Shown: positions 22,493 to 31,547 of the stretch, piece after piece
Position numbering within the stretch: the stretch's first letter is position 1
Layout of the letters: the number at the start of each line of letters is the position of its first letter
NCBI RefSeq assembly: GCF_055900595.2
Contig: NZ_CM148325.1
Length of the DNA stretch: 64,000 nucleotides
Reading direction: 5' to 3' (one strand)
Translations under genes and position numbers: made by a program
The notes under the pieces: generated by a model
The model's input: only the letters and a program-made list of their open reading frames with translations
The model's database searches: none
Told to the model about the DNA's origin: nothing

Positions 22493-24160
22493 GTGGCTCA
22501 ATTCGTTTATACCATGCATCGTGTCGGCAAAGTTGTTCCGCCGAAACGTCATATTTTGAAAAACATCTCTCTGAGTTTCTTCCCTGGGGCAAAAATTGGT
22601 GTCCTGGGTCTGAACGGCGCGGGTAAGTCTACCCTGCTGCGCATTATGGCGGGCATTGATAAAGACATCGAAGGTGAAGCGCGTCCGCAACCGGATATCA
22701 AGATTGGTTACCTGCCGCAGGAACCTCAGCTGAACCCGGAACACACCGTGCGTGAGTCCATTGAAGAAGCGGTTTCTGAAGTGGTTAACGCTCTGAAACG
22801 TCTGGATGAAGTGTATGCGCTGTATGCCGATCCGGATGCCGATTTTGACAAGCTGGCCGCTGAACAAGGCCGTCTGGAAGAGATCATTCAGGCTCATGAC
22901 GGTCATAACCTGAACGTTCAGCTGGAGCGTGCGGCTGATGCGCTGCGTCTGCCGGACTGGGACGCGAAAATCGCTAACCTTTCCGGTGGTGAGCGTCGTC
23001 GCGTGGCGTTGTGCCGCCTGCTGTTGGAAAAACCAGACATGCTGCTGCTCGACGAACCGACCAACCACCTGGATGCCGAATCCGTAGCGTGGCTGGAACG
23101 CTTCCTGCACGACTTCGAGGGCACCGTGGTGGCGATTACCCACGACCGTTACTTCCTCGATAACGTTGCAGGCTGGATCCTCGAACTTGACCGCGGTGAA
23201 GGTATTCCGTGGGAAGGTAACTACTCCTCCTGGCTGGAGCAGAAAGATCAGCGTCTGGCGCAGGAAGCTTCACAAGAAGCAGCGCGTCGTAAGTCGATCG
23301 AGAAAGAGCTGGAGTGGGTACGTCAGGGAACTAAAGGCCGTCAGTCGAAAGGTAAAGCACGTCTGGCGCGCTTTGAAGAGCTGAACAGCACCGAATATCA
23401 GAAACGTAACGAAACCAACGAACTGTTTATTCCACCTGGACCGCGTCTGGGCGATAAAGTGCTGGAAGTCAGCAACCTGCGTAAATCTTACGGCGATCGT
23501 CTGCTGATTGATGATCTGAGCTTCTCGATCCCTAAAGGGGCGATCGTCGGGATCATCGGTCCGAACGGCGCGGGTAAATCAACCCTGTTCCGTATGATCT
23601 CTGGTCAGGAACAGCCAGACAGCGGCACCATCACTTTAGGTGAAACGGTGAAACTGGCATCTGTCGATCAGTTCCGTGACTCAATGGATAACAGCAAAAC
23701 CGTTTGGGAAGAAGTTTCCGGCGGGCTGGATATCATGAAGATCGGTAACACCGAGATGCCAAGCCGCGCCTACGTTGGCCGCTTTAACTTTAAAGGGGTT
23801 GATCAGGGTAAACGCGTTGGCGAACTCTCCGGTGGTGAGCGTGGTCGTCTGCATCTGGCGAAGCTGCTGCAGGTTGGCGGCAACATGCTGCTGCTCGACG
23901 AACCGACCAACGACCTGGATATCGAAACCCTGCGTGCGCTGGAAAACGCCCTGCTGGAGTTCCCGGGCTGCGCGATGGTTATCTCGCACGACCGTTGGTT
24001 CCTCGACCGTATCGCCACACACATTCTGGATTACCAGGATGAAGGTAAAGTTGAGTTCTTTGAAGGTAACTTTACCGAGTACGAAGAGTACAAGAAACGC
24101 ACGCTGGGCGCAGACGCGCTGGAGCCGAAGCGTATCAAGTACAAGCGTATTGCGAAGTAA
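22493..24160 (+). CDS. ettA: energy-dependent translational throttle EttA (ABC-F ATPase, YjjK)
   Basis: 555-aa ORF with two ABC cassettes (GLNGAGKST…LSGGERRR…LLLDEPTNHLD; GPNGAGKST…LSGGERGR…LLLDEPTNDLD). Confidence 0.95.
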   Translation: MAQFVYTMHRVGKVVPPKRHILKNISLSFFPGAKIGVLGLNGAGKSTLLRIMAGIDKDIEGEARPQPDIKIGYLPQEPQLNPEHTVRESIEEAVSEVVNALKRLDEVYALYADPDADFDKLAAEQGRLEEIIQAHDGHNLNVQLERAADALRLPDWDAKIANLSGGERRRVALCRLLLEKPDMLLLDEPTNHLDAESVAWLERFLHDFEGTVVAITHDRYFLDNVAGWILELDRGEGIPWEGNYSSWLEQKDQRLAQEASQEAARRKSIEKELEWVRQGTKGRQSKGKARLARFEELNSTEYQKRNETNELFIPPGPRLGDKVLEVSNLRKSYGDRLLIDDLSFSIPKGAIVGIIGPNGAGKSTLFRMISGQEQPDSGTITLGETVKLASVDQFRDSMDNSKTVWEEVSGGLDIMKIGNTEMPSRAYVGRFNFKGVDQGKRVGELSGGERGRLHLAKLLQVGGNMLLLDEPTNDLDIETLRALENALLEFPGCAMVISHDRWFLDRIATHILDYQDEGKVEFFEGNFTEYEEYKKRTLGADALEPKRIKYKRIAK

Positions 24161-29355: not shown

Positions 29356-30372
29356 ATGTCCACATTACGCCTGCTCATCTCTGACTCTTACGATCCGTGG
29401 TTTAACCTGGCGGTGGAGGAGTGTATTTTTCGCCAGATGCCCGCCACGCAGCGCGTTTTGTTTCTCTGGCGCAATGCTGACACCGTGGTGATTGGTCGCG
29501 CGCAGAACCCGTGGAAAGAGTGTAATACCCGGCGGATGGAAGAAGATAACGTCCGCCTGGCGAGGCGCAGTAGCGGTGGCGGCGCGGTGTTCCACGATCT
29601 CGGCAATACCTGTTTTACCTTCATGGCTGGCAAGCCGGAATACGATAAAACGATCTCCACCTCGATTGTGCTCAATGCACTGAACGCGCTCGGTGTCAGC
29701 GCCGAAGCGTCCGGACGTAACGATTTGGTGGTGAAAACCGCCGAAGGCGACCGTAAAGTCTCAGGCTCGGCCTATCGCGAAACCAAAGATCGTGGCTTCC
29801 ACCACGGCACCTTGCTACTCAATGCCGACCTTAGCCGCCTGGCAAACTATCTCAACCCGGATAAAAAGAAACTGGCGGCGAAAGGCATTACGTCGGTACG
29901 TTCCCGCGTGACCAATCTGACCGAATTGCTGCCGGGAATTACCCACGAGCAGGTTTGCGAAGCCATAACCGAGGCCTTTTTCGCCCATTATGGCGAGCGT
30001 GTAGAAGCGGAAATTATCTCCCCGGACAAAACGCCGGACTTGCCGAACTTCGCCGAAACCTTTGCCCGCCAGAGTAGCTGGGAATGGAACTTCGGTCAGG
30101 CTCCGGCGTTTTCGCATCTGCTGGATGAACGCTTTACCTGGGGCGGCGTAGAACTGCATTTCGACGTCGAAAAAGGCCATATCACCCGCGCCCAGGTGTT
30201 TACCGATAGCCTCAACCCCGCACCTCTGGAAGCTCTCGCCGGACGACTGCAAGGCTGCCTGTACCGCGCGGACATGCTGCAACAAGAGTGTGAAGCGCTG
30301 TTGGTTGACTTCCCTGAACAGGAAAAAGAGCTACGGGAGTTGTCGACGTGGATAGCGGGAGCGGTACGGTAA
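29356..30372 (+). CDS. lplA: lipoate-protein ligase A
   Basis: 338-aa [69 protein letters not shown]…. Confidence 0.95.
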
Positions 30373-30403
30373 CTCGCTGATTAAAATATCCAGGGAAGGA
30401 AAT

Positions 30404-30667
30404 ATGATCGATCTGAAGAACCAGGAACGGGAGATTATCAATTTAATGTTCAGCCAGGGTATATCCTGGCTAACCGCCGTGCGTATCAGGCATAAACTAT
30501 CACTTGCTGAAGTTAGTAAAATGTTGGGTATCTCGATTAATTCTCTAAAACAAATCGAAAAGACGGAACGGCTTAGTTCAAACATCAAAAACAAAATGGC
30601 AGGAATTTATGGTTGTCCGCCAGAGTTGCTGATATGCCCTTACTGGATGACGGCTGAACATAAATGA
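30404..30667 (+). CDS. small hypothetical protein with a helix-turn-helix motif (87 aa), in the position K-12 yjjJ occupies
   Basis: ORF with strong SD (AGGGAAGGAAAT-ATG) 31 bp after the lplA stop; HTH-like segment LSLAEVSKMLGISINSLKQIEK; AT-rich. Confidence 0.4.
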   Translation: MIDLKNQEREIINLMFSQGISWLTAVRIRHKLSLAEVSKMLGISINSLKQIEKTERLSSNIKNKMAGIYGCPPELLICPYWMTAEHK

Positions 30668-30766
30668 ATAGATTCGTGAATAGATACTCGAATGGATTTA
30701 ATTTTCTATCCATATGAAAAATAATAGTAAATCTATAAATCAGTCGCTATTGATGAATAGATACTA
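30664..30766. repeat. three direct copies of TGAATAGAT(A/T)C downstream of the small HTH ORF
   Basis: Copies at 30665-30673, 30678-30686 and 30755-30763; the first overlaps the ORF stop codon. Confidence 0.5.
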
Positions 30767-30794
30767 AAAAGCCGGAGCGGTCTCCCGCTCCGGC
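30766..30794 (-). terminator. rho-independent terminator of the deo operon (after deoD)
   Basis: GCCGGAGCGG-TCTC-CCGCTCCGGC hairpin followed by a U-run on the minus strand. Confidence 0.85.
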
Positions 30795-30827
30795 TTCACA
30801 CGACAATCGCCTTTCAGCGAAACACAA

Positions 30828-31547
30828 TTACTCTTTATCGCCCAGCAGAACGGATTCCAGTGCGATTTTGATCATGTCGTTGAAGGTAGTCTGACGCTCA
30901 GCGGCAGTGGTTTGCTCGTGAGTGCGGATGTGGTCAGACACGGTGCAGATGGTCAGGGCTTTCGCGCCAAACTCTGCAGCCACGCCGTAGATACCAGCCG
31001 CTTCCATTTCCACGCCGAGGATGCCGTATTTTTCCATCACGTCGAACATTTCGCCGTCCGGAGAGTAGAACAGGTCAGCGGAGAACAGGTTACCAACGCG
31101 AGCATCAATGCCCAGTGCTTTAGCTGCATCTACTGCGTTACGCACCATGTCGAAGTCAGCGATAGCGGCAAAGTCATGGTCTTTAAAACGGATGCGGTTA
31201 ACTTTGGAATCGGTGCAGGCACCCATACCAATCACTACGTCACGCAGTTTTACGTGCGGCAGAACTGCACCACAGGAACCAACGCGAATGATTTTCTTCA
31301 CGCCGAAATCGGTGATCAGTTCTTTAGTGTAGATGGAGCAGGACGGGATACCCATACCGTGGCCCATTACAGAAATTTTGCGGCCTTTGTAAGTACCGGT
31401 GAAGCCCAGCATACCGCGAACGTTGTTCACTTCACGAGCATCTTCAAGGAAAGTTTCAGCAATATACTTCGCACGCAGCGGGTCGCCTGGCATCAAAACT
31501 ACGTCAGCGAAATCGCCCATTTCTGCATTAATGTGTGGAGTAGCCAT
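30828..31547 (-). CDS. deoD: purine nucleoside phosphorylase DeoD
   Basis: ORF 30828..31604; DeoD N-terminus [33 protein letters not shown] begins at an internal Met (239 aa). Confidence 0.95.

What the first reader, a model, noticed from the sequence alone, without database searches (positions are those of the whole stretch)
30373..30827. yjjJ (HipA-like kinase) absent between lplA and deoD; small HTH ORF in its place
In K-12 the ~1.3-kb gene yjjJ (HipA-like Ser/Thr kinase with an N-terminal HTH) lies between deoD and lplA. Here only 455 bp separate the lplA stop (30372) from the deoD stop (30828). That space holds an AT-rich 87-codon ORF (30404-30667) with a strong SD and an HTH-like segment (LSLAEVSKMLGISINSLKQIEK), co-directional with lplA. 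It could be an HTH remnant of a deleted toxin-type kinase gene, an orphan HipB-like antitoxin/regulator, or an unrelated small regulator. I could not settle the orientation of K-12 yjjJ from memory, so the remnant hypothesis is open.
Basis: partly seen in the sequence, partly recalled or inferred. Interest (0 to 1): 0.55.

Follow-up and report, generated by a model that had tools for sequence, protein, structure and literature searches.

The report
Orphan antitoxin-like HTH gene replacing yjjJ
Between lplA and deoD this E. coli strain carries, instead of the K-12 toxin-kinase gene yjjJ, a small DNA-binding-protein gene that is the commoner state of this locus in E. coli, is unrelated to yjjJ, and looks like the leftover DNA-binding half of an antitoxin from a different toxin-antitoxin family, so the finding is real but fairly ordinary.

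Summary
lplA ends at 30372, deoD ends at 30828, yjjJ is absent, and an intact 87-codon ORF (30404-30667, + strand) lies between them.

This is not an unusual deletion. About 4037 of 5426 complete E. coli genomes carry this interval, 1346 carry yjjJ, and about 43 carry something else. K-12 is therefore the minority state. The ORF is already annotated, for example as ECs_5344 in O157 Sakai.

It is not a yjjJ remnant. yjjJ lies on the opposite strand, and there is no DNA or protein similarity to YjjJ, to its N-terminal HTH or to HipB.

yjjJ is probably the ancestral occupant, since it is syntenic in Salmonella, Citrobacter and E. albertii. The replacement is nevertheless old: an unidentified genus has a 43%-identical 87-aa ortholog at the same place.

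The protein is an Xre-type HTH. It is homologous (hhalign 99.3%) to the C-terminal half of ~120-aa proteins encoded just downstream of ParE/RelE toxins. It lacks their N-terminal domain and has no toxin gene beside it.

dN/dS is 0.1-0.5, so it has been a real gene, but at least 1686 genomes carry a stop at codon 50.

The window also retains the conserved ATCTATTCA repeat array that lies upstream of yjjJ in other genomes. Function is inferred, not shown.

The parts
29356..30372 (+). lplA (lipoate-protein ligase A). Its stop codon is the left edge of the variable segment.
   Evidence: ORF list and RefSeq annotation of matching genomes. Homology with K-12 stops at 30371.
30373..30403 (+). 31-nt spacer carrying a Shine-Dalgarno-like AGGGAAGGA. 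No terminator lies between lplA and the ORF, so co-transcription with ytjB-lplA is inferred.
   Evidence: Sequence. The scan finds no terminator-like site and only one weak promoter-like site, which overlaps the start codon.
30404..30667 (+). Intact 87-codon gene for a small Xre-type HTH protein. It is identical to the product PGAP annotates as WP_000566247.1 in strain RMDEC465, and it is the ortholog of ECs_5344 in O157 Sakai. It is an orphan homolog of the C-terminal half of ParE/RelE-associated HTH antitoxins.
30659..30697 (-). Retained proximal part of the yjjJ 5' regulatory region. It comprises the former yjjJ start codon (CAT, 30659-30661) and three tandem ATCTATTCA units with a 12-bp period: 30665-30673, 30677-30685, and a degenerate copy at 30689-30697. 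The first unit overlaps the ORF's stop codon.
   Evidence: Alignments A1, A3 and A4. Repeat finder. Motif count of 3 here against 0.39 expected in 64 kb.
30698..30752 (-). Fast-evolving spacer. It corresponds in position and length to the yjjJ promoter region of K-12 but is only about 50% identical to it.
   Evidence: Alignments A3 and A4.
30754..30762 (-). Distal ATCTATTCA unit, invariant across the Escherichia, Salmonella and Citrobacter loci examined.
   Evidence: Alignment A4.
30768..30796 (-). deoD intrinsic terminator: a 13-bp GC-rich stem followed by UUUUUAGUAU on the - strand. On the + strand the hairpin has no U-tract.
   Evidence: Fold of -29.5 kcal/mol, z -5.1. Inverted repeat I4.
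30828..31547 (-). deoD (purine nucleoside phosphorylase), the right flank.

Best explanation
The lplA-deoD interval has two alternative, non-homologous occupants in Enterobacteriaceae. One is the HipA-family kinase gene yjjJ/hipH on the deoD strand. The other is a small HTH gene on the lplA strand. This window has the second, which is the majority allele in E. coli.

The 87-aa product is a five-helix Xre/Cro-type DNA-binding domain with an extra N-terminal helix. It is homologous to the C-terminal DNA-binding half of ~120-aa proteins that sit directly downstream of ParE/RelE-family toxin genes on phages and plasmids. Here it lacks their N-terminal ~50 residues and has no toxin partner, so it is an orphan, truncated antitoxin-like regulator.

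Inferred mechanism (not shown): it is translated from the ytjB-lplA transcript, with a 31-nt gap, an SD and no terminator in between. It binds DNA as a small repressor at an unknown operator. It is dispensable, because many E. coli lineages have inactivated it.

The replacement removed exactly the yjjJ coding sequence. It left the conserved ATCTATTCA repeat array that precedes yjjJ in other genomes.
For: Allele counts: the 455-bp interval is covered at >=80% in 4037 of 5426 genomes, and yjjJ is present in 1346.

Breakpoints: homology with K-12 stops at 30371 and resumes at 30659 (alignments).

Ancestry of yjjJ: it is syntenic between deoD and lplA in E. albertii, Salmonella, Citrobacter and one further enterobacterium.

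Age of the replacement: an 87-aa ortholog with 43% identity sits at the same place in a genome whose lplA is 78-80% identical to all of the above. Its stop codon falls in the same repeat-like sequence.

Coding constraint: dN/dS is 0.1-0.5 within Escherichia and 0.2-0.3 against the distant ortholog, compared with 0.01-0.10 for lplA.

Fold: pLDDT 89.5, and the best PDB matches are CylR2, C-proteins, DdrO, P22 c2 and SinR.

Family: phrog_7241 at 2e-9. tblastn hits at 29-38% identity in phages and plasmids. In all four contexts opened the hit is a 118-124-aa protein just downstream of a RelE/ParE toxin gene. Pfam ParE_toxin scores 6e-11 on one of those toxins. hhalign gives 99.3%, E 2.8e-20, aligning residues 9-77 of the ORF with 53-121 of the antitoxin profile.

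Dispensability: an exact 63-mer carrying TAG at codon 50 is present in 1686 genomes. PGAP flags 'internal stop' or 'frameshifted' in two of the loci sampled.
Against: No expression or binding data were available. No operator was identified: the palindrome type seen in the homologous TA promoters is absent from the window.

Pfam and NCBIfam hits of the ORF itself are weak and generic.

Widespread inactivation argues that any function is minor or conditional.

The 'truncated antitoxin' history is inferred from the domain alignment only. No intermediate with a toxin gene at this locus was found.

Only four homolog contexts were opened. A fifth relative, P0083, is not obviously toxin-linked.
Confidence: 0.7

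Rival explanations
1. The ORF is a functionless relic in this strain. It would be a leftover of an old insertion that happens still to be open and is drifting toward loss.
For: At least 1686 of about 4037 carriers have a premature stop at codon 50. Frameshifted, internally deleted and fully deleted forms exist. The family is almost confined to Escherichia among 1.84 billion representatives. dN/dS is several-fold higher than for lplA.
Against: dN/dS is clearly below 1 among intact alleles and against the 43%-identical ortholog, which keeps exactly 87 codons. At least 1376 genomes carry the exact 63-mer of the intact O157-type allele around codon 50. The SD and start codon are preserved.
Confidence: 0.25
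2. The ORF is the N-terminal HTH of yjjJ left behind by a deletion of the kinase domain.
For: It occupies the same interval and is an HTH protein. A genuine yjjJ 5' remnant of this kind exists in strain WB61.
Against: It is on the opposite strand. There is no protein or DNA similarity. The YjjJ NCBIfam model does not hit it.
Confidence: 0.01
3. The ORF is a HipB-type orphan antitoxin that neutralises or regulates HipA/YjjJ-family kinases in trans.
For: Its size (87 aa against 88 aa for HipB) and its fold class are similar. Published work reports that HipB rescues YjjJ toxicity (PMC9948734), so cross-talk among such proteins exists. The ORF sits at the yjjJ locus, next to the retained yjjJ upstream repeats.
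Against: There is no BLASTP alignment to HipB. The 87-aa protein gives no hit to the HipB NCBIfam model at E<=1. There is no TATCC-N8-GGATA operator nearby. No Hip kinase is encoded in the window. Its closest relatives pair with ParE/RelE toxins, not Hip kinases.
Confidence: 0.04

Closest known systems
HTH antitoxins (about 118-124 aa; PHROG phrog_7241) encoded downstream of ParE/RelE-family toxins. Examples: Pasteurella phage Pmp14 gp33, Enterobacteria phage PPyecE_EH1910 gp290, and the Serratia and Leclercia plasmid pairs.
   Same: The C-terminal ~70 residues are homologous, including the helix that precedes the HTH. hhalign gives 99.3% with 38% identity over 69 columns, and several columns are invariant across the family alignment (A25, R27, E52, A66, C71, L76).
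   Different: The ORF lacks the N-terminal ~50-residue domain. It has no toxin gene upstream, because lplA ends 31 nt before it. It is chromosomal at a fixed core-genome site. The palindromes seen in those TA promoters are absent here.
YjjJ/HipH, the HipA-family Ser/Thr kinase toxin with an N-terminal HTH (E. coli K-12 b4385)
   Same: It occupies exactly the same interval as the alternative allele. The upstream repeat array is shared by both alleles.
   Different: It is on the opposite strand and shows no sequence similarity. It is 443 aa against 87 aa and has a kinase domain.
HipB antitoxin/repressor of hipBA
   Same: It is a small (88-aa) Xre-type HTH protein.
   Different: There is no detectable pairwise similarity, no adjacent kinase, and no HipB operator.
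Small Cro/C1-type repressors with solved structures (CylR2, the R-M controller proteins C.BclI and C.AhdI, the P22 c2 N-terminal domain, the SinR N-terminal domain)
   Same: The predicted five-helix HTH core matches, with TM 0.6-0.77 on the target and rmsd 1.5-2 A over 53-60 residues.
   Different: Sequence identity is only 16-30%. There are extra N- and C-terminal helices. The operator and target genes are unknown.

Membership tests
Xre/Cro-C1 HTH superfamily (Pfam HTH_3 and relatives) | Five-helix bundle with a helix-turn-helix at helices 2-3 | tested here: met
   The AF2 model has pLDDT 89.5. All top Foldseek PDB hits are Cro/C1-type domains, each with probability 1.0.
Xre/Cro-C1 HTH superfamily (Pfam HTH_3 and relatives) | Significant profile match to a family HMM | tested here: inconclusive
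   HTH_3 scores E 7.8e-5 (23 bits) and Sigma70_r4 scores E 1.7e-5. Both are weak and they compete. I did not check the gathering thresholds.
ParE/RelE-associated HTH antitoxins (phrog_7241-like) | Homologous C-terminal HTH domain | tested here: met
   hhalign 99.3%, E 2.8e-20. phrog_7241 E 2.1e-9, matching profile positions 54-121 of 122.
ParE/RelE-associated HTH antitoxins (phrog_7241-like) | N-terminal ~50-residue domain (the LQYIxDxxG...VLPIEEYKRL motif) | tested here: not met
   In alignment A5 the 87-aa protein begins at the linker that follows this domain.
ParE/RelE-associated HTH antitoxins (phrog_7241-like) | Toxin gene immediately upstream in the same operon | tested here: not met
   lplA ends 31 nt upstream and there is no room for a toxin gene. 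By contrast a toxin is present in 4 of the 4 homolog contexts opened.
ParE/RelE-associated HTH antitoxins (phrog_7241-like) | Neutralises a cognate toxin and autoregulates the operon | not testable with these tools
   This needs co-expression and binding assays.
HipB antitoxins | Sequence membership (NCBIfam NF007271 or similarity to HipB) | tested here: not met
   There is no BLASTP alignment at E<=100. NF007271 is not among the NCBIfam hits at E<=1.
HipB antitoxins | Adjacent hipA-family kinase gene and TATCC-N8-GGATA operators | tested here: not met
   tblastn with HipA and YjjJ finds nothing in the window. The only operator-like match, with one mismatch, is at 23715 and is at the chance level.
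YjjJ/HipH (remnant of) | Similarity to YjjJ on the yjjJ strand | tested here: not met

The most novel reading that the evidence does not exclude
The two cassettes may be functionally linked rather than accidental alternatives. On this reading the orphan HTH protein acts on the ATCTATTCA repeat array, which is conserved from Salmonella to Escherichia upstream of yjjJ and is retained intact in yjjJ-less strains. Either/or occupancy of the locus by a kinase toxin or by an antitoxin-derived repressor, seen in more than one genus, would then be maintained by selection, for example as anti-addiction or as locus-specific immunity against re-acquisition of the toxin.
Probability: 0.06. Interest if true: 0.55.

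Novelty: new member of a known kind. Interest (0 to 1): 0.25.

Why it matters
Mostly it corrects a K-12-centred expectation. yjjJ/hipH, which has been studied as an E. coli toxin kinase, is absent from about three quarters of complete E. coli genomes. There an annotated but unstudied small HTH gene takes its place.

Two modest leads follow.

1. A chromosomal site where one toxin-family gene has been swapped for the DNA-binding stump of an antitoxin from another family gives a natural system for asking what orphan antitoxin domains do.

2. The strongly conserved ATCTATTCA array just upstream of the yjjJ start codon is a concrete candidate for the still unidentified repressor site of the yjjJ promoter reported by Reg-Seq (PMC7567609). 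It is also a candidate binding site for YjjJ's own N-terminal HTH.

Tried and rejected
- **Remnant hypothesis.** BLASTP against YjjJ and against its N-terminal region, and blastn-short and blastx of 30373-30667 against yjjJ, gave only chance matches.
- **HipB link.** There is no alignment to HipB and no operator.
- **Solved structures by sequence.** Nothing below E 0.09.
- **PADLOC.** Only generic HTH models matched.
- **Rfam over 30200-31000.** Nothing significant.
- **Operator search.** I looked for the CTTATA..TATAAG-type palindromes seen in the homologous TA promoters. None occurs in 64 kb.
- **Balancing-selection signal.** lplA is unusually diverse (about 0.04-0.06 differences per site), but equally so within and between allele classes, so the diversity is not linked to the cassette.
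- **Genome-contig scan with YjjJ.** It returned only E. albertii, because the peptide patterns were too strict.
- **Search with the distant ortholog P0078.** It found only itself, so its organism remains unidentified.
- **P0077 (69% identity).** It is a C->T-converted copy resembling bisulfite-treated reads, and I discarded it.
- **Literature.** There are no papers on ECs5344/Z5987 or on the repeat motif.

Full report
**Observation.**
The window region reads serB(-), ytjB(+), lplA(+, 29356-30372), an 87-codon ORF (+, 30404-30667), then deoD(-, stop at 30828), deoB and deoA. In a K-12 derivative (DH1, locus L001) the same interval is 1498 bp and holds the 1332-bp yjjJ. The absence of yjjJ is therefore real.

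**How common it is.**
- Megablast of the 455 bp against 5426 complete E. coli genomes finds it at >=80% coverage in 4037.
- yjjJ is found in 1346.
- The two numbers sum to 5383, which is consistent with mutually exclusive alleles plus about 43 genomes in other states.
- Other states seen were: yjjJ with an IS200C inserted upstream (CFT073); an 'empty' 195-bp interval in HS-02, whose flanks are 99% identical to this window, so it is a derived deletion of the ORF; and a 140-nt yjjJ 5' remnant pseudogene in WB61.
- PGAP annotates the ORF as a 'helix-turn-helix domain-containing protein'. In strain RMDEC465, whose 455-bp interval is identical to the window's, the product is WP_000566247.1. In O157:H7 Sakai the ortholog is ECs_5344, 'transcriptional regulator'.
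- I found no paper that mentions it.

**Not a yjjJ remnant.**
yjjJ lies on the deoD strand and the ORF on the lplA strand. Homology between this window and K-12 stops at the last base before the lplA stop (30371) and resumes at 30659, which aligns with the yjjJ start codon. Between these points there is no DNA or protein similarity in any frame. The replaced segment is thus exactly the yjjJ coding sequence.

**Which is ancestral.**
- YjjJ orthologs sit between deoD and lplA in E. albertii (95% aa identity), Salmonella enterica (58%), Citrobacter freundii (62%) and another enterobacterium (69%). yjjJ is therefore probably the ancestral occupant.
- The HTH ORF is nevertheless old. It is present in the lineage that a source names E. 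marmotae and in 'Escherichia sp.' lineages.
- HMMER against 1.84 billion representatives finds one 87-aa relative of 43% identity. It lies between lplA and deoD in a contig whose lplA is only 78-80% identical to those of Escherichia, Salmonella and Citrobacter.
- Its stop codon falls in the same repeat-like sequence (TGAACAGAC against TGAATAGAT). This suggests a single old replacement event, or a shared mechanism.

**Is it a real gene?**
Nei-Gojobori dN/dS among intact Escherichia alleles is mostly 0.1-0.5, with one low-count pair at 0.81. Against the distant ortholog it is 0.2-0.3. For lplA in the same pairs it is 0.01-0.10. That indicates purifying selection, but weak. On the other hand an exact 63-mer carrying TAG at codon 50, inside the recognition helix, is present in 1686 genomes, while 1376 carry the exact 63-mer of the intact O157-type allele. 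Frameshifted and internally deleted versions also exist. The gene is intact in this window but is clearly dispensable in E. coli.

**What the protein is.**
- Pfam and NCBIfam give only weak generic HTH or sigma-region-4 hits.
- An AlphaFold model is confident (pLDDT 89.5). It shows a five-helix Cro/C1-type core with extra terminal helices.
- Foldseek's best PDB matches are CylR2, R-M controller proteins, DdrO, P22 c2 and SinR.
- PHROGs gives phrog_7241 (E 2e-9), matching only the C-terminal half of that 122-position profile.
- tblastn finds 29-38%-identical segments in phages and plasmids.
- In all four contexts opened (Pasteurella phage Pmp14, a Serratia plasmid, a Leclercia plasmid and Enterobacteria phage PPyecE_EH1910) the hit is the C-terminal part of a 118-124-aa protein encoded just downstream of an 86-93-aa RelE/ParE-family toxin gene. 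One of those toxins scores 6e-11 on Pfam ParE_toxin.
- Profile-profile comparison of the Escherichia family with these proteins gives 99.3% probability, E 2.8e-20, aligning residues 9-77 with 53-121.
- The 87-aa protein starts in the linker after their N-terminal domain. It has no toxin gene beside it, because lplA ends 31 nt upstream.

It is therefore best described as an orphan, N-terminally truncated homolog of a ParE/RelE-associated HTH antitoxin. It is not HipB-like: there is no alignment to HipB, no HipB-type operator and no Hip kinase in the window.

**Likely mechanism.**
What is shown is the fold, the homology, the coding constraint and the gene layout. What is inferred is the following:
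- translation from the ytjB-lplA transcript, since there is no terminator-like site and only a weak promoter-like site overlapping the start codon;
- DNA binding as a small repressor.

No operator could be proposed. The CTTATA..TATAAG-type palindromes found in the promoters of the homologous TA modules are absent from the window.

**The retained yjjJ upstream region.**
- On the - strand, 30659-30765 keeps the former yjjJ ATG and three tandem ATCTATTCA units at 12-bp spacing that end 3 nt before it. It also keeps a ~56-bp spacer and a distal ATCTATTCA next to the deoD terminator.
- A multi-genus alignment shows these units are nearly invariant in Salmonella, Citrobacter, E. albertii, K-12 and this window, while the spacer that must hold the promoter diverges to about 50%.
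- That is a classical phylogenetic footprint. Reg-Seq reported two repressor sites at the yjjJ promoter, one assigned to MarA and one unidentified (PMC7567609). ChIP-exo found no binding by YjjJ itself under the conditions used (PMC8464067).
- Whether the array still does anything in yjjJ-less strains is unknown. In the window the relic ATG opens only a 27-codon antisense ORF.
- The hairpin at 30768-30796 is a good terminator for deoD but lacks a U-tract on the ORF's strand.

**Verdict.**
The remnant interpretation is refuted, and the orphan-antitoxin idea is supported in a modified (ParE/RelE-type) form. The feature is a common, already annotated allele of a known presence/absence polymorphism, so interest is low to moderate. 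The most useful by-product is the conserved repeat array upstream of yjjJ.

Noticed in passing
window 30659-30765 (- strand); also L001 3004-3104, L006 3890-4000, L026 3390-3500, L027 3400-3500, L029 3400-3500: An array of ATCTATTCA units lies upstream of yjjJ: one distal unit, then three tandem units with a 12-bp period that end 3 nt before the ATG. It is nearly invariant from Salmonella and Citrobacter to Escherichia, while the ~56-bp spacer between the distal unit and the tandem units diverges freely. There is no Shine-Dalgarno sequence before the yjjJ ATG. The array is a candidate operator for the unidentified repressor of the yjjJ promoter, and it is retained in this yjjJ-less window.
   Followed up: partly
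window 29356-30372 (lplA): The lplA allele of this window is rare. The best match among 5426 complete E. coli genomes is 98.9%, and 4543 genomes are only 90-95% identical. The neighbouring deoB is ordinary (95-99% identity or better in every genome with a match). lplA dS between E. coli strains reaches 0.1-0.3. This diversity is not linked to the yjjJ/HTH allele class.
   Followed up: partly
L017 1679-1681 (strain S1) and 1686 genomes: A single nonsense allele of the HTH gene (CAG->TAG at codon 50) is shared by at least 31% of all complete E. coli genomes. In large lineages the gene is therefore a fixed pseudogene.
   Followed up: yes
L005 2449-2640 (strain WB61); L003 2462-2656 (strain HS-02); L002 2186-3063 (CFT073): Further structural states of the same interval exist. 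WB61 has an internal deletion of yjjJ that leaves its first ~46 codons. HS-02 has a deletion of the HTH ORF with about 30 nt of filler. CFT073 has IS200C inserted between the distal repeat and the deoD terminator.
   Followed up: partly
window 30581-30661 (- strand): The relic yjjJ start codon opens a 27-codon ORF (MFSRHPVRAYQQLWRTTINSCHFVFDV) that is antisense to the 3' end of the HTH gene. It shows no similarity to YjjJ and is probably meaningless.
   Followed up: no
L011 and L012 (protein P0077): An apparent 69%-identical homolog is an E. coli copy with systematic C->T changes (R->W, S->F, A->V, P->L). It looks like bisulfite-type converted reads assembled in Logan, so it is a database artefact.
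   Followed up: yes
L024 12028-13716 (O157 Sakai NC_002695.2): The Sakai annotation gives 'lplA' as a 1689-nt CDS that spans both ytjB and lplA. This is apparently an annotation fusion.
   Followed up: no
L029 2356-3500: In one enterobacterium the deoD-yjjJ spacer is expanded. It holds repeated 29-nt REP-like elements and an extra 163-aa ORF with no Pfam hit.
   Followed up: no
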